A DNA stretch of 64,000 nt from Joostella atrarenae (GTDB lineage: Bacteria > Bacteroidota > Bacteroidia > Flavobacteriales > Flavobacteriaceae): positions 62,548 to 126,547 of the forward strand of contig NZ_JAETXX010000008.1 of the NCBI RefSeq assembly GCF_021764745.1, in the 5' to 3' direction. A model generated the notes under the pieces. That model had not been told where the DNA came from, ran no database searches, and saw only the letters and a program-made list of their open reading frames with translations. The position numbers and the translations under genes are program-made. Positions 25,879 through 35,913 of this stretch are shown piece by piece; within the stretch, counting starts at the first letter, position 1, and each line of letters starts with the position of its first letter.

Positions 25879-28800
25879 TTACTGGAGTCCCCGTTGGAGA
25901 ACTTCTTTAATACCTTCAAGGTTTTCAGAAAACTGCATCATTTGCGCTAGCACTTGTGCCATTTCATTTTTATCGCCAAAGCCTTTTAGCTTATTATTTT
26001 TCTGAAAAGTTTCCTTTATTTGTTCCCAGCGATCAAATTCAGTAGCACTCATCTGACCTACCAATTCTTTATATTTTAAGAGGTTTGCCTCAGCTGATGA
26101 TGTTAATGTTTGAGATTCACTTTCATAATGCGATAATAATAATGTTTGCAATTCATCATCATTCATTACAGGCACTACTTTAGCCACTAATTTATTCATA
26201 TCTCTATAAGAACCTTGAAGCTTAAATGATGGCTCTACGCGATATTCATCTTCCATAGCTGCACTCTTTATATACATTGTATTAACCTTTAAAATCGAGT
26301 TTCTAATTTTAACGATTTTCTCTAATACAGAAACGTATTCGTCAACCTCTTGCTTTGTATAATTACCTTCAAGATCAACCTCTTTGTTATTGTTCTCAAT
26401 TCTATCTAATAGTCTATAAACATCAGCAAAATTCTTACTGCTTAGCTGATGTAAAACTGGATTGGAAGTAAGCGAATTCTCAATTAAACTTAACCTAAAT
26501 AAATGAGCCGTATCTCCAATAATATCTCCTAAATTATAAATATCTGCCCTATTTGAAAGCATATCAGGAATTCTAAACTTTTCACCGCTCTCAGTATAAG
26601 GATTTCCAGCCATTATAACACAAAATTTCTTCCCACGAAGATCATAAGTTTTCGACTTTCCATTAAAAACACCTTCAACTTTTCGAGTACCATCGGAAAG
26701 GGATATAAACTTTTGCAAAAATTCTGGATTACAATGCTGAATATCATCTAAATATAGCATCACATTGTTACCCATTTCAAAAGCGAGGTTCAACTTCTTA
26801 AGCTCTTCTCTTGCTGCAGAATTATTTGCAGAAGCAGGGTCTACAGAGGTTATTTCGTGACCAATAGCAGGTCCATTAATCTTCATAAAAATAAGACCCA
26901 ATCTATTCGCTATATACTCCATCAACGTAGTTTTACCGTATCCAGGAGGCGAAATTAAAAGCAACATTCCCATTCTATCTGTTCGCTTTTGGTCTCCAAC
27001 CGTTCCCAATTGTTTGGCTAAATTATCTCCGAATAAGGGCAAATAAACTTGATCTATAAGCTTATTTCTAACAAAAGAACTCAATATTCTTGGCTTAAAT
27101 TCTTCTAGCCTAAGCATTTCCTTAAGCGAAACTGTAACTTCATGTTTTGCTCGTTTATAGGCATTATATGCTGGTACTTTTTCAGAAAAATAATTAGTTA
27201 AATGAGAAACAAAATCATGGTAATTAAAATTATAAACACCGTTACGGATAGATAAATGTTCTCCTCGTAGACCTACTATTTCTTCTGATGGAGAAACGAA
27301 TTTAGTATTTAATGCAGACTCATCTCCAAAAAGAATTAAACACACAACCTCATCAACATAGTTTAATTTAAAAGTTAGATTATCCTCTCCTAGACTATGC
27401 AAATAAGCTCCAACCCATTGTTGCACTAATGCTATCTTTGATTCATAAGAACCAAGGTTTTCAAGGCTGTTTTTAAACCTTAAATCACCTTTCTCTTCTT
27501 TTAGTTTATTTAGAAAGCCTTCTTTTATCTGAATTGCTACGCCACTCCTTTTAAAATCATTATCATTCTGAAGTTCTTCAAAAAGATAGTTACTAATATC
27601 AGTTGCTAGACTCGAATTAAAAATGCCTGTATTTTTTGAAAACTCGATAATCGACAATTGAAGCTTTTCTATGATAAAATTGTATTCCTTTGTGTTTGGA
27701 AAAAACTGAATTACATCTCCAGAGGCTTTTATGGTTTGGTTTAAGTGTTTTTTTTGTTCCTCTCCTATAAAGTTCCAAAAATATTGAGCATAAGCTCTTA
27801 TTCTTGGAGGATAAGATAACAGCTCCAAAGCTTTGTGTTTCGCTATAAATACTGATAAAATAGCTGTTGCATCTAAATCGTGTACTCCTTTAACATAACC
27901 CTCAGAATAATCTTTACTACTTTCTTCTTGAACCAACTTTAATAATGCTTCTTCAGAAAGCTCCAAAACATCTTTAGGGAATTTTTTAAAAATCTTAAAA
28001 GCTAAATAAGCACTTCGATACACAACATCGTTTTCCGAAATATAATCTTGGTTCCAAAATTCTTGAGATTCTAATAGCGTTTCATTTTCTATCTTCTGAT
28101 AAAAATCTGTTCCAGTAAGATGGTATTGCAAACTTCCATCAACATATAAAATTGTAAGATCTAAGGATTGATTATTAACACCAAACTTATGCTTTCCTAA
28201 ACGAATTATATTATTGCCATCTTCATATAATTCTTTTTTATCTTTAAGCTTACGCAGCGAATCTTCTTGAGCTGATTTTAATAAAGATTCTATCTCTTCA
28301 GCTTTCCCGCTATCTCCCATTTCTTGGAGCTGCTTAGCAATATCCCGCGACTTACTAACTAGCATGTCTGAAGCGAAATATGCATTTATATCTTTAGCTT
28401 CAGAAAAAGATTCTGCCTTTTTTCTTACCCCATTTAAAATCCTTTCTGCAGAATTTTGAAGAGCAATCGCCCTTTTATTTCTCTTTTCTACTAATTGATT
28501 TTTTCTAGCCTCAAAAGCATTATAGATCTCCTCTCTTTTTTCAATGATAAGACTGATAAACTCTTCAAAATCTGCAAATTTACCTTCTAACTCTTCTAAT
28601 TGAATGGATATTCTTGTTTGGAAATCTTCACACTTCTCTGGTGTATCAGAAATATCCAAGTAGTTAATTATACTCTGATCGATCAATTTAAGCTGTGCAG
28701 CAAAATCTGCCTGAGCTTCTTTGCTTCCTAAAGATTTTTGCTTCTTTTTAATCCTCGCTTTTAATTGATTAATCGTAGAAAAAATTAAAGAAATATTATT

Positions 28801-30753
28801 AATTATTTCTATAGAATGAGAGGTGTCTTCTATTTTTAAATTAGAAACTACATCTATAAGAAGTTCTAAATCTTTAGATATTTGATTTACCTCTTCCTCT
28901 AAATTTTTAGCGTCAATAACTTTTGCGATAGCATCTAGCGATTTCTCTTTTTCTTTCACCTTATTTTCATAAGGCATTAAAGCTTTATCATCTAGCAAAA
29001 ATTGCACACAACGTTCAGAAATCTTTTCAGATTGCTCTGCGATTCTATTTTCAAGTTCGTCAATAAATTTTTTATCTAAATAACGAACCTCCTTTAAACT
29101 AATAGCTTCTCCTCGTAAAGCACGTAACTGAGTGAGAAAATCTACAAAATCATTAATACTTTTAAAACTCGTGCTCTTAATTTTATTAAAAAGATGCGTA
29201 GCCGTTTTATCTATTTCCTGTGTTTTCTTTTGCGCATTCTTTTTTAACTGAAGTACTTTTTGAAATTCATCTATTGCAGCATTTGCTGCCTTATTAATTT
29301 CTTGTAACGGTTCATTTAAAAGTTTAGTTTCTTCTTCATTCAACCAATAATATGAATCTAAAATGTTTTTAGATTGCTTTGCCAAATCAGAATACAAACC
29401 ATCATAATTATCTTCTTTATTCAGTAAATTAACCAAACCATTTACTTCAGCCATCGCCTTCACAATGTCCTTATTTCCTATTTTATAAAGTAAAGAGTCT
29501 TGATGTTCCGACGGAATAATATCTCCTTTGAGATAAGGAGTTTGCCATATCTGAATTACATGATGTTTGCTTTGCTCATCTTCATTTTTGAAATAACATA
29601 ACTCACCATTATCTAATATTGTAAATCCGTTGCATATTATTGGAGTTTGTATTTTCTGAAGAATTACATTATAGCTCATTAAATTATACAAACCGCTTTC
29701 AGGAGCATAAAAAACATATAAATAATCCTCACCATTGGGAGAACTAATTCTCTCTTGAAACTTTACATTGGGAATACTATTATCAAAAATATTATACTCC
29801 CCAGTTTGCAAATAATAACCTGTTGGAAAAATCACTCCATGATCATCTGGAAGTAAAATACAACTGTTCTTGATACTCTCAATTTTCTGTACTTCCTTCA
29901 GCTTATGATTATAAATAAAATACCGAGCTTCCTCTTGGAAAGGCTTAATTTCGATAACAATTAAGTTTCCTAAGTTGGCAAATTTATATTGACCGTCATC
30001 TAGAGTTTGATCTCTATGAGTAACCTCTTCAGCATAAATACCTTTACCATTCTCTGTATTATCCTCCACTTTTATGGTAAGATCTCCGCCTATAGTTTCA
30101 ACGAAAACCTTATCCAAAATAGAAACATGAGCATGGAGACCTTGCCGATGCATATCTCTAGTTACCTCCTGCCAATTAAACTCATGTTGAGAAGGTAGCT
30201 TATATTCATGCTCACTACGATTATCTATATACTTTAACTGACCATCTTTTATTAACCACTTAAACGTTTTTATATCGGTCACACTATCACTAAGCTGAAA
30301 AACCATATACAAATAGTTTCCCACGATAGCGAACTTAGAAAAAATAGTATTTCTATAATATTTATATAGGTTTTGAAAGTCAGAATAAAAAACATCATCA
30401 TTTAAAACATCTAAAGAAATAGGATCAAAGTTGTTATTATTGAATTTATAAATACTAATAACATCACTAAGCTTTATATCTGTTCTTAATCCAAAATGAA
30501 CATTGTATCCAAACAAGCAAGTATCCGATAACGACAATATATCTCTAGCGATGCAATTGTTTTCTGTATTTATTCGATTGGTGGCGATAAGTTTTGTTTC
30601 CAAAGATCCAAAAACCTCTTTTCTACCTTCATTAAGGTTTTTTAGACGCTCTTGTAATTCAGTCTTCTGCTTCTGTAATCGATTCTGAATTACCTCATAG
30701 GTTCCAGCATCGAGTTTTTGCACGTTGTCTTCCTTTGTAGATTCCTTTGCCAT
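25879..30753 (-). CDS. Giant (1624 aa) cytoplasmic protein: beta-rich N-terminal region, long central coiled coil, single MoxR/AAA_5-like P-loop ATPase domain near the C-terminus
   Basis: Walker A LLLISPPGYGKTTLMEY (nt ~26935-26960). Walker B VMLYLDDIQHCNPEFLQ (nt ~26736-26753). Sensor-1-like CVIMAGNPYT. Arg-containing IPDMLSNRADIY. No TM segments. Residues ~430-800 are heptad-rich (E/K/L/Q). It is the last gene of the PspA-flotillin cassette. Confidence 0.75.
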   Translation of the reverse strand: MAKESTKEDNVQKLDAGTYEVIQNRLQKQKTELQERLKNLNEGRKEVFGSLETKLIATNRINTENNCIARDILSLSDTCLFGYNVHFGLRTDIKLSDVISIYKFNNNNFDPISLDVLNDDVFYSDFQNLYKYYRNTIFSKFAIVGNYLYMVFQLSDSVTDIKTFKWLIKDGQLKYIDNRSEHEYKLPSQHEFNWQEVTRDMHRQGLHAHVSILDKVFVETIGGDLTIKVEDNTENGKGIYAEEVTHRDQTLDDGQYKFANLGNLIVIEIKPFQEEARYFIYNHKLKEVQKIESIKNSCILLPDDHGVIFPTGYYLQTGEYNIFDNSIPNVKFQERISSPNGEDYLYVFYAPESGLYNLMSYNVILQKIQTPIICNGFTILDNGELCYFKNEDEQSKHHVIQIWQTPYLKGDIIPSEHQDSLLYKIGNKDIVKAMAEVNGLVNLLNKEDNYDGLYSDLAKQSKNILDSYYWLNEEETKLLNEPLQEINKAANAAIDEFQKVLQLKKNAQKKTQEIDKTATHLFNKIKSTSFKSINDFVDFLTQLRALRGEAISLKEVRYLDKKFIDELENRIAEQSEKISERCVQFLLDDKALMPYENKVKEKEKSLDAIAKVIDAKNLEEEVNQISKDLELLIDVVSNLKIEDTSHSIEIINNISLIFSTINQLKARIKKKQKSLGSKEAQADFAAQLKLIDQSIINYLDISDTPEKCEDFQTRISIQLEELEGKFADFEEFISLIIEKREEIYNAFEARKNQLVEKRNKRAIALQNSAERILNGVRKKAESFSEAKDINAYFASDMLVSKSRDIAKQLQEMGDSGKAEEIESLLKSAQEDSLRKLKDKKELYEDGNNIIRLGKHKFGVNNQSLDLTILYVDGSLQYHLTGTDFYQKIENETLLESQEFWNQDYISENDVVYRSAYLAFKIFKKFPKDVLELSEEALLKLVQEESSKDYSEGYVKGVHDLDATAILSVFIAKHKALELLSYPPRIRAYAQYFWNFIGEEQKKHLNQTIKASGDVIQFFPNTKEYNFIIEKLQLSIIEFSKNTGIFNSSLATDISNYLFEELQNDNDFKRSGVAIQIKEGFLNKLKEEKGDLRFKNSLENLGSYESKIALVQQWVGAYLHSLGEDNLTFKLNYVDEVVCLILFGDESALNTKFVSPSEEIVGLRGEHLSIRNGVYNFNYHDFVSHLTNYFSEKVPAYNAYKRAKHEVTVSLKEMLRLEEFKPRILSSFVRNKLIDQVYLPLFGDNLAKQLGTVGDQKRTDRMGMLLLISPPGYGKTTLMEYIANRLGLIFMKINGPAIGHEITSVDPASANNSAAREELKKLNLAFEMGNNVMLYLDDIQHCNPEFLQKFISLSDGTRKVEGVFNGKSKTYDLRGKKFCVIMAGNPYTESGEKFRIPDMLSNRADIYNLGDIIGDTAHLFRLSLIENSLTSNPVLHQLSSKNFADVYRLLDRIENNNKEVDLEGNYTKQEVDEYVSVLEKIVKIRNSILKVNTMYIKSAAMEDEYRVEPSFKLQGSYRDMNKLVAKVVPVMNDDELQTLLLSHYESESQTLTSSAEANLLKYKELVGQMSATEFDRWEQIKETFQKNNKLKGFGDKNEMAQVLAQMMQFSENLEGIKEVLQRGLQ

Positions 30754-30961
30754 TCTATATTACACTGAATTTGTTCCCCTCAACAGAATAATTGAGCGGT
30801 TATTATTTTTTTAAAGTTGATTGTATTTGACGAAAATTACCTAAAGAAAACAGAGGTTTTTTAAAATATAATGAAAGCAGTATTATTAGTAACTCCAATA
30901 AGAACTCAATTCAAAAAACCTCTGTTATATATAGCTATTAATCTTTAGCTAGCGTCTTTAT

Positions 30962-33040
30962 TTATCTATTCAACTTCGATATCGTACTATCTGAAATCCC
31001 TAAACCTTTCGCTAAGTTTAATAAATTTCCAAGCATCGTTTTATCTTCAGCACTATCAGATTTCATCTTAAGATCTGCAATCAAGCTAGCTATTGTTATA
31101 TTCTTAATATCTTCCGTAGAAACACCATATTTAATCGCAAAGTTTCTTACTTTTTCTAGTAAGTTGCCCTTAACATCGTCGCTTCCTAAAATAGCATCCT
31201 TAACTTCTTGAACATTGGTACTACTTTGTACCATTCTATCAAAACCTTTACCTCTTGTTATCTGACCTATAATCTGATCAAAGAACATCGTTTCTCCACC
31301 AACAATATCAATCTTAGCCGCTTTAAGAGCATCTCCTATAACTTGCGCTTGAGCATCTGCTATTTCTTTCTGAATATTGATATTAGCTAGATCTATTTGT
31401 AAGTCTTTGTTTAATCGTAATTTAAACTCTTCGTGTTCTTTACCTACACCATCTAGCTTCTTCATTGCAGCTGCTTTCTCCTCAATTCCTGAAGCATCAG
31501 CAAATGCTTTTTCTTTAATAACATCTGCTTCCGCAAGACCATCTTTACGTTTAGCTTCCGCTTTAGCTTCAATTCCGAGAGCTTCTGCTTTTGCTTTTTT
31601 CTCAATAATATTAGCTTCCACTAACCCTTGACGCTCGTTTGCATCTGCTTTTGCATGCATTACTTGTGCCTCAGACATACCAACAGTAGCCTCTTCTTTA
31701 GCTTGCGCCTCTGCCAATATTTTTCTTGCTTCTGCTTGTTTAGCACTAGCTTCTTTATGAGCTAAAGCTTCAATATTTATCTCTTCAGCTTTTTGCTTAG
31801 CTGCTTCTTTTTGTGCTTCGGCAGCTTTTATTGTTTTAATAAGGCTTTCTTCTGCTAGCGCTTCAGCAGTAGTAATCTTAACTTGTTTATCTCTATCTGC
31901 AGTTTTAAACGCTTGAATATCTTTCATGTTTTCCTGTTCTTCTACTACACCCTTCTCAAGCATAACACGATCACGAATAACATCTTGTATATTCTTTTTC
32001 TCTACCTCTACTACTTTCTCTTTTTCAATTTGCGCTAACGTAACAACTCTTTCTCTTTCTGTAGCCTCTAGCAATCTATCTTTTTCAACTCTTTCTGTCT
32101 CCACAGCATCTGTACGCTCCTTATTTTTAAGAGCTACAATAATTTGACGCTGCATATTCTCTTCAGCTACTTTTACTTTTTCTTCAGTAGAAATCCTTGC
32201 GCTTTCAGATTTTAAACGCTCTTCTTCATTAACCTTTAATGTTTCTGCTTCTTCTCTTGCTTTGATATTGGCAATTTCACGTTTTTGCTGCTCTTCTTTT
32301 TCTGCTAATTGTTTATTAAGCTCAAGAATAGTCTCACGAGCTTCTACATCCTGCTTACGAATAGTTTTCTCTTCATCTCTTTTGATAAGATTCGCTTTCA
32401 TATTTTGAACAGCAGTAAGCTCTGTAATTTTCTTAATACCCTCAGCATCCAAAATATTATCTGGTTTCAACTCTTTTACAGAAGTCTGCTCTAAAAAGTC
32501 AATCGCACAATCTTCTAAAGTGTAACCATTAAGGTCTGTTCCGATAATATTAACTATTTCATCTCTAAACTCTCTTCGCGCTTCATATAGCTCAATAAAA
32601 TCAAACTTTTTACCCACTGTTTTTAAAGCTTCAGAAAACTTAGCTTCAAAAAGGTCTTCGAGAGTAGCAATTTTTGATGCTCGATCTACACCAATAGTTT
32701 GCGCTACTTTTTTAATATATTCAATATCATTATTTACTCGAACAAAAAAAGCAACCTTAATATCGGCTCTCATATTGTCTTTACATATAAGTCCCTCATG
32801 AGCCAGTCTTTCAATCTGAATTTTCTTTACAGAGATATCCATTATCTCAGTTTTATGAAATACTGGTACTGTATAAAGCCCTCTATCTGTAGCTACTTTA
32901 GTCCCTCCAAATCCGGTTCTAATTAGCGCCTGACCCTGAGGTACTTTTTTATAAAACATCGCAATTATTGCGAAATAAACAATTATTAAAAATAGAAGTA
33001 TTCCTATTCCAATGCCAACAAGTGGTAAAATTGATTCCAT
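30962..33040 (-). CDS. yqiK: Flotillin / SPFH (band-7) family protein, YqiK-like, with an unusually long EA-repeat coiled-coil
   Basis: N-terminal TM, then SPFH motifs LIRTGFGGTKV and KDNMRADIKVAFFVRV, which match E. coli YqiK (FVRTGLGGQKV / KDRMRVDVVVAFFVRV). ~300 aa of AEAKAE-type flotillin repeats. 692 aa. Confidence 0.9.
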   Translation of the reverse strand: MESILPLVGIGIGILLFLIIVYFAIIAMFYKKVPQGQALIRTGFGGTKVATDRGLYTVPVFHKTEIMDISVKKIQIERLAHEGLICKDNMRADIKVAFFVRVNNDIEYIKKVAQTIGVDRASKIATLEDLFEAKFSEALKTVGKKFDFIELYEARREFRDEIVNIIGTDLNGYTLEDCAIDFLEQTSVKELKPDNILDAEGIKKITELTAVQNMKANLIKRDEEKTIRKQDVEARETILELNKQLAEKEEQQKREIANIKAREEAETLKVNEEERLKSESARISTEEKVKVAEENMQRQIIVALKNKERTDAVETERVEKDRLLEATERERVVTLAQIEKEKVVEVEKKNIQDVIRDRVMLEKGVVEEQENMKDIQAFKTADRDKQVKITTAEALAEESLIKTIKAAEAQKEAAKQKAEEINIEALAHKEASAKQAEARKILAEAQAKEEATVGMSEAQVMHAKADANERQGLVEANIIEKKAKAEALGIEAKAEAKRKDGLAEADVIKEKAFADASGIEEKAAAMKKLDGVGKEHEEFKLRLNKDLQIDLANINIQKEIADAQAQVIGDALKAAKIDIVGGETMFFDQIIGQITRGKGFDRMVQSSTNVQEVKDAILGSDDVKGNLLEKVRNFAIKYGVSTEDIKNITIASLIADLKMKSDSAEDKTMLGNLLNLAKGLGISDSTISKLNR

Positions 33041-33054
33041 AGTATTAATATTAA

Positions 33055-33759
33055 TTAGTCATTATAAGATTGTACAAAATAAAAGTTGCGATCGGCAGAT
33101 CTTTTAATTATTAAAATACTGGTTCCATAATTTAATGGGTCTCCAGTTAGAGATTTCACGTAAATTGATAATGTATCTCCATTAACTTTAACTTCAGCAT
33201 TCCCCATTTTATCTTCTGATATAGAAGAAAGCAATGTTGCTTTTCTCCCTAAATAATCAATAGGGGCATCTCCATCTTTATTTAAATTCTTAAAAAAGGC
33301 TTTAAAAGGAGTTGTTATTATTTTTGTCAATATCAGCGATGGAAGTAATGCCAAAAGCATTATTACAAAACCAATGGTATTATCGTAGGTGCCGGTAATT
33401 GAAGTTATCATAGCAGTACAAAACCACCAGATAAATATCCAAAATGTAAAAGTGAACATAAACGGAAGTCCTACAAAATTAAAATAGATAAGTAGAATTT
33501 GCCACCATTTTAATGGCTTCCTCCTTTTCCCTACCACATCTTCTTGATTGATCTCTGTATTGGAAATATCTTCAAAGTCCATATTCCCTCCTTCAATACC
33601 AGTATCTACATCCATATCAACATCTACATCGATGTCAAAGTCAGGCTCAAAATCCAATCCCCCAATCATGGTTGCAATCCAATATAGAATTAGAATTATA
33701 AGTAGTATTGATAAGATTATATTTACTTCAGAAAAAAGTATATTGGTTAATTCTGTCAA
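33055..33759 (-). CDS. YqiJ/NfeD-like membrane protein (multi-TM plus C-terminal OB-fold) with an acidic DxD repeat loop
   Basis: 234 aa with 4-5 TM helices. Acidic tract DFEPDFDIDVDVDMDVDTGIEGGNMDFEDISNTE. C-terminal beta-rich segment GRKATLLSSISEDKMGNAEVKVNGDTLSIYVKS fits the NfeD OB-fold pattern. The gene sits immediately upstream of the flotillin, as yqiJ-yqiK does. Confidence 0.55.
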   Translation of the reverse strand: MTELTNILFSEVNIILSILLIILILYWIATMIGGLDFEPDFDIDVDVDMDVDTGIEGGNMDFEDISNTEINQEDVVGKRRKPLKWWQILLIYFNFVGLPFMFTFTFWIFIWWFCTAMITSITGTYDNTIGFVIMLLALLPSLILTKIITTPFKAFFKNLNKDGDAPIDYLGRKATLLSSISEDKMGNAEVKVNGDTLSIYVKSLTGDPLNYGTSILIIKRSADRNFYFVQSYND

Positions 33760-33775: not shown

Positions 33776-34477
33776 TTATTTCATTCCAAGTTGATTCTTC
33801 AACTTACTAAGCTCATCTTCTGCTTTGTTTTCTGAAACATCCGCAGCCTTATTTATTTCATCATCTATAGACTTAGATGTATTAGCTATCTCCCCATAAG
33901 CTTCTGCAAGAGCTTCCTCTTGGGCAACTTTTTCTTTCATTCTTTCTAACATCGAAACAGTTCCTGTACTGTCCAATTCGGCCATTTGCTTATTAAGATT
34001 TTTAGTCGCATTGCTAACTTTTACCCTTGCATTAAGAGTTTTTAACTCATTTTCCCACTTACCTATATTAGATTTTATAGCTTGGATATTTTTTTGAAGT
34101 TGAGCCACATTATTATCAAACTTCTCGGACTCTTGCGTAGCTTGTAATATCTGCTTATCTACTACTTCTTTTTGTAAAAGTGCTTCCTTTGCTAATCTGT
34201 CTGCTTCATTAGCATCCATTTGACCAGCTTGTGCCTTTTTAAGAATTAAAATAGCCTTATTCTGATAATCATCTGCTTTATTCTGATATTCTTCTTTATC
34301 ATTTTTAGCACGTATAGCTAACGCCTTCACCTTAGCCATAGCCTCAAGACTCTTTTCAAGATCTAATTTCATATCCCTAATTCCTTGTTCGGTCATCTTT
34401 ATAGGATCCTCCATTTTATCTATGGCAGCATTAGTTTCTGCTTCGCCAATTTTAAATAATCGTTTAAATATATTCAT
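33776..34477 (-). CDS. pspA: PspA/IM30 (phage-shock protein A / Vipp1 / ESCRT-III-like) family protein
   Basis: 233 aa, fully coiled-coil. N-terminus MNIFKRLFKIGEAETNAAIDKMEDPIKMTEQGIRDMKLDLEKSLEAMA aligns with E. coli PspA [48 protein letters not shown]. Confidence 0.85.
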   Translation of the reverse strand: MNIFKRLFKIGEAETNAAIDKMEDPIKMTEQGIRDMKLDLEKSLEAMAKVKALAIRAKNDKEEYQNKADDYQNKAILILKKAQAGQMDANEADRLAKEALLQKEVVDKQILQATQESEKFDNNVAQLQKNIQAIKSNIGKWENELKTLNARVKVSNATKNLNKQMAELDSTGTVSMLERMKEKVAQEEALAEAYGEIANTSKSIDDEINKAADVSENKAEDELSKLKNQLGMK

Positions 34478-34490
34478 GATTTTCTCTTTT

Positions 34491-34886
34491 TTAGTATTTT
34501 GAAAATTCTATAATTTTATCTGAGTACTCACTCATTAATAAACTCAACGAGTTTAAAGCAGCTTCAAGCTCATTAAGATCCATATTTTCAACTTGTAAAG
34601 TATCCCTAAAGATTACTTTATTTCCTGATTCGTCTAGCGCAAATGCTCCATGTATAATATCTCTGTTTTTTTGCAGTAAATTCTTAAAAACTGCCTCAGA
34701 CTGATTATTTATCTTGAAAAGGTATTGCTCCATTATTAATATAGGTGGAGCTACACCAACAATAAGATTTCGAATACCAGAGTTTTCCTTTTGGATAACC
34801 AAAACGCCTTCTTCAGGGTTTTCATGTGTAATATTGAAGTCTAACTCAAGTAGAAAATCCCGAGTTATGTTAAAATGGTTTTTCAT
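34491..34886 (-). CDS. Small soluble protein, possibly YbjN/YjfI (DUF2170)-like chaperone-fold partner of the PspA paralog
   Basis: 131 aa, no TM. 13-nt spacing to the pspA-like gene. The alternating hydrophobic pattern (GVLVIQKENSGIRNLIVGVAPPILIMEQYLF...) is reminiscent of YjfI-type proteins that precede PspA paralogs. This is a family guess only. Confidence 0.3.
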   Translation of the reverse strand: MKNHFNITRDFLLELDFNITHENPEEGVLVIQKENSGIRNLIVGVAPPILIMEQYLFKINNQSEAVFKNLLQKNRDIIHGAFALDESGNKVIFRDTLQVENMDLNELEAALNSLSLLMSEYSDKIIEFSKY

Positions 34887-35154: not shown

Positions 35155-35913
35155 ATGTCATTATTTGGAAAAAATATTAGAAAAATAAGAAGTTTAAAAT
35201 CGATGAGCCAGCAGGCATTTGCAGACTTATTTGACCTAAAAAGAGGCACTCTAGGAGCTTATGAAGAAGGACGTAGCGAACCTAAAATAGATACTATTAT
35301 TAAGATTGCTAATTATTTTAGCATTCCAATAGATCACTTGCTAACAAAAGAATTAACCGTAAACGAGCTTTTAAAATTTCGTGGAGGTGTTGAACGTTAC
35401 AATACGGAAATATCGAATCAATTATTTTTTAAAAGAATTCCCTGTATCCCTTCAGAAAGAATTAAAGAGTATTCTGAAAATTTTAATAACACTGATTATA
35501 TTGAGAATATTCCCTATGTATTATTGCCAATCACAGAAGGATCTGAAATGAGAAGCTTTATAATTAACAACCTAGAAATGAGTAAAAACAATAAAGGTTT
35601 TTACCCTAAAGATGTTGTTATTGGTAGTAAAGTAGATAATTTATCTCCAGAAATAATACAAGATGGAAAATTATATATAACCGTCTTAAAAGAAGAAGTT
35701 ATATTTAGAAGAATCTTCATTTCAAACACTAAAATCACCCTAAGAGCAGATCATCCAGGAGTTGAAGACATCATTCTAAAACTTACTGATATTAAAGAGC
35801 TCTGGAGAGTAGACTATGTTTTTTATCACCGAACATTAGAAAACAACACCGATTTAGAGGATAAAATAATGAAATTAGAAGAGCAATTTAAACAATTAAA
35901 ATCTGAATTATAA
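35155..35913 (+). CDS. XRE-family HTH transcriptional regulator with LexA/CI (peptidase S24)-like C-terminal domain
   Basis: N-terminal HTH: IRKIRSLKSMSQQAFADLFDLKRGTLGAYEEGRSEPKIDTIIKIANYFSIPIDHLL. The C-terminal beta-rich domain has a GSEM segment (compare S24 GDSM) and a ITVLKEE Lys region. The catalytic dyad is not certain. Confidence 0.6.
   Translation: MSLFGKNIRKIRSLKSMSQQAFADLFDLKRGTLGAYEEGRSEPKIDTIIKIANYFSIPIDHLLTKELTVNELLKFRGGVERYNTEISNQLFFKRIPCIPSERIKEYSENFNNTDYIENIPYVLLPITEGSEMRSFIINNLEMSKNNKGFYPKDVVIGSKVDNLSPEIIQDGKLYITVLKEEVIFRRIFISNTKITLRADHPGVEDIILKLTDIKELWRVDYVFYHRTLENNTDLEDKIMKLEEQFKQLKSEL

What the first reader, a model, noticed from the sequence alone, without database searches (positions are those of the whole stretch)
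25879..30753. Architecture of the giant ATPase: N-terminal beta-rich region, ~370-aa coiled coil, helical domain, single C-terminal AAA_5-like module.
The track translation shows three regions. (a) Residues ~60-420 are rich in aromatic/beta-strand patterns (LYMVFQLSD, YLYVFYAPESGLYNLMSYNV, ICNGFTILDNGELCYF), suggesting a propeller or other beta-rich sensor domain. (b) Residues ~430-800 have heptad character (E/K/Q/L-rich). (c) The ATPase core lies at ~1190-1340, followed by ~280 aa of helical tail. A lone AAA+ module at the end of a ~170 kDa protein, with no TM segment, is unusual. It resembles the layout of some STAND/dynein-like or MoxR-associated giant proteins, but no second ATPase or VWA partner is evident nearby.
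Basis: seen in the sequence. Interest (0 to 1): 0.7.

Follow-up and report, generated by a model that had tools for sequence, protein, structure and literature searches.

The report
Flotillin-linked giant AAA+ ATPase
This 1,624-residue protein belongs to a widespread, already described but never tested bacterial family: a dynein/MoxR-type ATPase with a propeller-tipped helical arm, encoded next to a flotillin membrane scaffold, so it probably reshapes that scaffold and does not repair DNA as its database name says.

Summary
The ORF is real (25879-30753, minus strand, 1,624 aa, Joostella atrarenae).

- **N-terminal part.** Residues 54-404 model as a roughly seven-bladed beta-propeller, within Pfam DUF3686.
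- **Middle part.** Residues 421-841 are all helical: 12 helices, only partly heptad, not one 370-aa coiled coil. A small beta unit and a 230-aa helical domain follow.
- **Absent features.** No TM segment, no second ATPase and no VWA partner were found.

It is not an oddity. The family has at least 1,343 clusters at 50% identity, in at least eight phyla, and is collinear throughout. In 60 of 63 loci the gene follows a YqiK-type flotillin, and in 58 of 63 also a YqiJ-like membrane protein. PspA and a CesT-like protein join in only about half of loci. Ravi et al. 2024 describe exactly this operon and ATPase.

Most likely it is a cytosolic remodelling ATPase for flotillin/PspA membrane scaffolds. 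That role is inferred and untested. The "DNA repair ATPase" label has no support.

The parts
25879..30753 (-). Whole ORF, 1,624 aa: DUF3686-DUF7902-AAA+ ATPase, named 'DNA repair ATPase' in NCBI
   Evidence: ORF list and translation. 100% identical to Joostella atrarenae protein P0001. Pfam domains.
30610..30708 (-). N-terminal helix, residues 16-48. It has heptad character and carries the invariant R25 and R44.
   Evidence: AF2 secondary structure, heptad test, invariant columns.
29542..30594 (-). Beta-propeller of about seven blades, residues 54-404; the core of Pfam DUF3686 (residues 32-469)
   Evidence: AF2 pLDDT is mostly 86-94 here, with dips to about 77 and 62, and about 27 strands. Foldseek matches to beta-propellers, most seven-bladed, E 1e-5 to 1e-3. 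Pfam E 2.5e-179.
28231..29493 (-). Helical arm, residues 421-841: 12 helices with short breaks, length invariant across phyla
   Evidence: AF2. Gap fraction about 0 in 43 distant homologues. Heptad signal is only partial.
28732..28986 (-). Pfam DUF7902, residues 590-674, inside the helical arm; overlaps the strongest heptad stretch (612-684)
   Evidence: Pfam E 1.3e-23; heptad test.
28093..28209 (-). Small beta unit, residues 849-887 (two or three hairpins), carrying the invariant G853 and F857
   Evidence: Predicted in both AF2 models; invariant columns.
27328..28017 (-). All-helical domain, residues 913-1142. Least conserved part (24% mean identity to distant homologues); no fold assignment.
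27007..27288 (-). Two strands plus long linker helices, residues 1156-1249, leading into the ATPase
   Evidence: AF2.
26524..26991 (-). AAA+ alpha/beta core, residues 1255-1410, of the dynein/MoxR/midasin type
26929..26952 (-). Walker A, S1268-PPGYGKT-1275, invariant
26743..26763 (-). Walker B, VMLYLDD (1331-1337). D1336-D1337 is found in 52 of 52 sequences, so the usual catalytic Glu is replaced by Asp. Invariant Q1339 and H1340 follow.
26641..26682 (-). Beta-hairpin between Walker B and the sensor-1 strand (a pre-sensor-1 hairpin by position), residues 1358-1371, with a conserved aromatic at 1363 (W 28, Y 12, F 7 of 52)
   Evidence: AF2 strands 1358-1363 and 1366-1371; column counts.
26542..26607 (-). 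Sensor-1 strand and Arg-finger region, residues 1383-1404: G-N1384-P-Y ... P-D-M-L-x-N-R1402-A-D, invariant
   Evidence: The functional roles are assigned by position, which is inference.
25882..26523 (-). C-terminal helical region, residues 1411-1624, including the lid. It holds an invariant block R1505 ... L-Q-G-S-Y-R1517 (sensor-2 candidate).
   Evidence: AF2, invariant columns, 59% identity for residues 1501-1565.
30849..30926 (-). Long hairpin in the 208-nt spacer between the flotillin gene and the ATPase gene: a 17-bp stem followed by UUUCUUU
   Evidence: Sequence. RNA fold -43.2 kcal/mol, z -3.3, 0 of 200 shuffles fold as well.
30962..33040 (-). YqiK-type flotillin, 692 aa (TM segment, SPFH/Band_7 domain, Glu/Ala-rich helical region); the constant upstream partner
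   Evidence: Pfam Band_7. 30% identity over 446 aa to E. coli YqiK, E 5e-45. Present in 60 of 63 loci.
33055..33759 (-). YqiJ/NfeD-like membrane protein, 234 aa
   Evidence: Family profile against E. coli YqiJ: hhalign probability 96.9%, E 1.8e-10. 11 of 26 family members match Pfam YqiJ_N. Present in 58 of 63 loci.
33776..34477 (-). PspA/IM30 protein, 233 aa; an optional partner
   Evidence: Pfam E 2.6e-40. Present in 32 of 62 loci.
34491..34886 (-). CesT/Tir-like protein, 131 aa; first gene of the operon
   Evidence: Pfam CesT_Tir_1, E 8.9e-56. Present in 30 of 62 loci.
35155..35913 (+). Divergently transcribed HTH_3 regulator with a weak S24-like C-terminal domain; travels with the CesT-PspA pair
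   Evidence: Pfam. Present in 30 of 62 loci.

Best explanation
The gene encodes the third, cytosolic component of a conserved membrane-scaffold module: a YqiJ (NfeD-like) membrane protein, a YqiK-type flotillin and this ATPase. In Bacteroidota a CesT-like protein, PspA and a divergently transcribed HTH regulator are added.

The C-terminal dynein/MoxR-type AAA+ domain presumably forms a ring. Each subunit would then project a roughly 1,200-residue arm made of a helical domain, a fixed-length helical rod and a seven-bladed propeller. The propellers and rods would dock on the cytoplasmic flotillin assembly, and where present on PspA polymers. Nucleotide binding and slow hydrolysis would drive assembly, reshaping or disassembly of that scaffold at stressed membrane.

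Shown here: the domain architecture, the fold class, the catalytic-residue pattern and the gene linkage. Inferred: ring formation, physical contact with flotillin/YqiJ/PspA, and the direction and purpose of the remodelling.
For: **Gene linkage**
- 60 of 63 relatives with at least 4.5 kb of upstream sequence have the flotillin directly upstream on the same strand; 58 of 63 also have the YqiJ-like gene. These loci come from Bacteroidota, Planctomycetota, Verrucomicrobiota, Desulfobacterota and Clostridia.
- The flotillin gene also lies directly upstream of the ATPase gene in Proteus, Pseudomonas pQBR103, Deinococcus and Streptomyces. The YqiJ-like gene was confirmed by homology only in Proteus and pQBR103; in the other two a small unannotated ORF sits in its place.
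- No downstream gene is conserved.
- PspA is linked in two independent ways: CesT_Tir_1-PspA in Bacteroidota, and the yjfI-yjfJ polyamine operon fused upstream in pQBR103.

**Partners and localisation**
- The partners are YqiK- and YqiJ-type proteins.
- The ATPase has no TM segment.

**ATPase features**
- The fold is closest to dynein, CbbQ, midasin and NorQ.
- Walker A, sensor-1 N1384, R1402 and R1517 are invariant. The ATPase core is 72% identical across phyla, against 24-41% for the arms.
- The helical arm has essentially no insertions or deletions across phyla.

**Literature**
- The same operon and a chaperone or membrane-dynamics role were proposed from comparative genomics in PMC11237479.
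Against: - No experiment exists for any member of the family (searches found no paper).
- Physical interaction and oligomeric state could not be modelled here.
- Walker B is Asp-Asp in all 52 sequences, and the loop after strand 2 has no aromatic pore-loop motif. This argues against a fast, threading unfoldase and allows a switch or scaffold role instead.
- The gene is usually separated from the flotillin gene by a spacer (median about 157 bp) that tolerates inserted selfish genes. In this window the spacer carries a terminator-like hairpin. Expression may therefore be partly uncoupled from the flotillin gene.
- 3 of 63 loci lack a flotillin nearby.
Confidence: 0.55

Rival explanations
1. It is a nucleotide-gated scaffold or tether and not a motor. 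The ring acts as an ATP-dependent assembly switch, as in DnaA or ORC. The fixed-length arms act as spacers that hold flotillin domes, or link them to other structures, with little mechanical work.
For: - Walker B is invariant Asp-Asp. From general knowledge, DnaA, DnaC and ORC-type switches carry Asp-Asp there.
- There is no aromatic pore loop.
- The helical arm has the same length in all phyla, with a gap fraction of about 0.
Against: - All other hydrolysis residues (sensor-1, Arg finger and sensor-2 candidates) are invariant.
- The closest folds are mechanical remodellers: dynein, midasin, CbbQ and NorQ.
- The hairpin between Walker B and sensor-1 keeps a conserved aromatic at its tip, as expected for a substrate-contacting element.
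Confidence: 0.2
2. It is a PspA-specific, Vps4-like disassembly ATPase. It recycles PspA (bacterial ESCRT-III) polymers, and flotillin only provides the membrane platform.
For: - PspA lies in the same operon here and in 32 of 62 loci.
- A second, independent fusion to a yjfI-yjfJ (CesT-like and PspA) operon exists in pQBR103.
- A 2025 review states that a Vps4-like regulator of PspA appears absent in bacteria, so the role is unfilled (PMC7619361).
Against: - About half of the loci have no PspA within 9 kb, whereas flotillin is nearly always present.
- No MIT domain was found.
Confidence: 0.15
3. It is a DNA-repair ATPase, as the NCBI and Pfam names say.
For: - Only the names ('DNA repair ATPase', 'ATPase involved in DNA repair').
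- Weak P-loop-level hits to RuvB (NCBIfam E 3e-5, far below the curated cut-off; Foldseek E 7.5e-6).
Against: - No nuclease, DNA-binding or SMC/SbcC/RecN domain was found in Pfam or NCBIfam.
- The constant neighbours are membrane proteins.
- No paper connects the family with repair.
Confidence: 0.03
4. It is a STAND-like or anti-phage defence sensor, with the propeller as ligand sensor and the ATPase as oligomerisation switch.
For: A large repeat domain plus a P-loop NTPase is a common defence layout. There are weak hits to nSTAND3 (E 0.053) and to PADLOC mad8 (E 9e-4, over the P-loop only).
Against: - No defence family reaches significance.
- There is no effector domain.
- The family is absent from 50,697 phage records.
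- The gene sits in an ordinary chromosomal context beside polysaccharide-utilisation genes.
- Sequence conservation across phyla is very high, unlike fast-evolving defence genes.
Confidence: 0.03

Closest known systems
[quoted passage not shown] 2024, mSystems, PMC11237479); Pfam DUF3686 + DUF7902 + AAA
   Same: [quoted passage not shown]
   Different: Nothing differs structurally; this is an ordinary member. This work adds the following.
- Linkage frequencies: flotillin 95%, PspA about 52% of loci.
- A confident AF2 domain map.
- Assignment of the ATPase to the dynein/MoxR type.
- The invariant Asp-Asp Walker B.
- The finding that most of the 'coiled coil' is a segmented helical rod.
MoxR-family AAA+ chaperones (CbbQ, NorQ, RavA)
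   Different: MoxR proteins are about 270-500 aa and work with a VWA-domain partner; here there are 1,250 extra N-terminal residues and no VWA gene. Walker B is Asp-Asp instead of Asp-Glu.
Dynein and midasin (Rea1/Mdn1) motor domains
   Different: Dynein and midasin carry six AAA modules in one chain. This protein has one module, so a ring would need about six copies, giving six arms instead of one.
FtsH-HflK/C, and Vps4-ESCRT-III
   Same: These are functional analogies only: an AAA+ machine working with an SPFH-family cage (FtsH-HflK/C), and an AAA+ ring recycling ESCRT-III polymers (Vps4). PspA is an ESCRT-III relative.

Membership tests
DUF3686-DUF7902-AAA+ family (flotillin-linked ATPase of Ravi et al. 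2024) | N-terminal DUF3686 domain (helix plus beta-propeller), matched over its full length | tested here: met
   PF12458 E 2.5e-179, residues 32-469 matching model positions 1-448 of 448; propeller fold.
DUF3686-DUF7902-AAA+ family (flotillin-linked ATPase of Ravi et al. 2024) | Central helical region with DUF7902, then a single C-terminal AAA+ module, collinear with family members | tested here: met
   PF25472 E 1.3e-23 and AAA_5/AAA E 1e-7. Alignment with 51 homologues at 31-80% identity has almost no gaps. Representative hits cover query residues 1-1200 in a single stretch.
DUF3686-DUF7902-AAA+ family (flotillin-linked ATPase of Ravi et al. 2024) | [quoted passage not shown] | tested here: met
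   Window gene order. YqiK and YqiJ homology. Flotillin present in 60 of 63 relatives. Description in PMC11237479.
MoxR AAA+ family | AAA+ fold of the MoxR/dynein type, with a beta-hairpin before sensor-1 | tested here: met
MoxR AAA+ family | Small stand-alone ATPase paired with a VWA-domain partner gene | tested here: not met
   The protein is 1,624 aa. No VWA domain in the operon or the flanking genes scanned. No conserved gene other than flotillin/YqiJ in 80 loci.
MoxR AAA+ family | Canonical Walker B hhhhDE | tested here: not met
   D1336-D1337 in 52 of 52 sequences.
Dynein/midasin | Six concatenated AAA modules in one polypeptide | tested here: not met
Vps4 / classical AAA clade | N-terminal MIT domain and a classical-clade ATPase fold | tested here: not met
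STAND NTPases | NACHT/NB-ARC-type NTPase followed by C-terminal sensor repeats | tested here: not met
   Only nSTAND3 at E 0.053, over 26 residues of the P-loop. The propeller is N-terminal. The fold is AAA+ with a hairpin before sensor-1.
DNA-repair ATPases (SbcC/Rad50/RecN/SMC, or RuvB) | ABC-type head split by a coiled coil, or a RuvB equivalog score, plus DNA-binding elements | tested here: not met
   NCBIfam RuvB scores 22.9 bits against a cut-off of 282; no SMC/SbcC/RecN hit for this protein. No DNA-binding domain.
Anti-phage defence systems (PADLOC) | Significant match of any operon protein to a defence-system model | tested here: not met
   Only mad8 at E 9e-4 over the P-loop. None for flotillin, YqiJ-like, PspA or CesT. 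The divergent HTH regulator gives only generic HTH-domain matches. No phage-borne copies.
Functional AAA+ ring ATPase | Oligomerises and hydrolyses ATP | not testable with these tools
   Walker A, sensor-1, R1402 and R1517 are invariant, but oligomer modelling and biochemistry were not available.

The most novel reading that the evidence does not exclude
This family is the dedicated ATP-driven remodeller ('uncoating' or assembly factor) of bacterial flotillin domes, and in some lineages also of PspA/ESCRT-III polymers. A six-armed, propeller-tipped AAA+ ring would grip the cytoplasmic SPFH cage and open, close or recycle it. That would be the first known energy-consuming regulator of any flotillin scaffold. 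It would also fill the Vps4-like role that reviews say is missing in bacteria.
Probability: 0.3. Interest if true: 0.75.

Novelty: already known. Interest (0 to 1): 0.35.

Why it matters
How flotillin/SPFH cages and PspA polymers are assembled and recycled in bacteria is unknown, and no energy source for it has been identified. This family is large, very strongly conserved and almost always encoded next to a flotillin gene, so it is the obvious candidate and has never been tested.

It occurs in tractable organisms (Proteus mirabilis, Pseudomonas fluorescens pQBR103, Streptomyces, Flavobacteriia), so the question can be tested directly.

Thousands of genome annotations call it a 'DNA repair ATPase' without any evidence, and that label deserves correction. 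For this particular window, however, the gene is an ordinary member of a family whose architecture and operon are already published.

Tried and rejected
- **Solved relatives.** PDB sequence and profile searches gave only P-loop-level hits to p97, Rix7 and RuvB. The flotillin also has no solved relative by sequence.
- **Defence role.** PADLOC and a phage search found nothing.
- **Extra operon component.** I checked the ORFs that sit between flotillin and ATPase in some relatives. They are unrelated to one another: IS200-like Y1 transposases, DUF559, DMP19 and an M54-like peptidase. They are insertions, not components.
- **Conserved downstream gene.** Clustering found only shadow ORFs inside the conserved genes.
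- **ATPase-specific flotillin block.** I looked for a conserved C-terminal block in ATPase-linked flotillins as a docking site. The family profile aligns to E. coli YqiK only over residues 6-445. By eye, however, the conserved 520-600 block looks like the ordinary flotillin C-terminus, so no specific docking motif can be claimed.
- **Protocoatomer-like reading** (propeller plus solenoid). This was suggested by IFT-A, Elp1 and nucleoporin hits. Their full-length TM-scores are only 0.13-0.15, and the helical part consists of long helices, not a solenoid. Rejected as unsupported.
- **Fold of the 913-1142 helical domain.** It could not be assigned, because AAA+ hits filled both result lists for that model.
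- **Literature.** Searches for DUF3686, PF12458 and 'DNA repair ATPase' with flotillin returned no papers.
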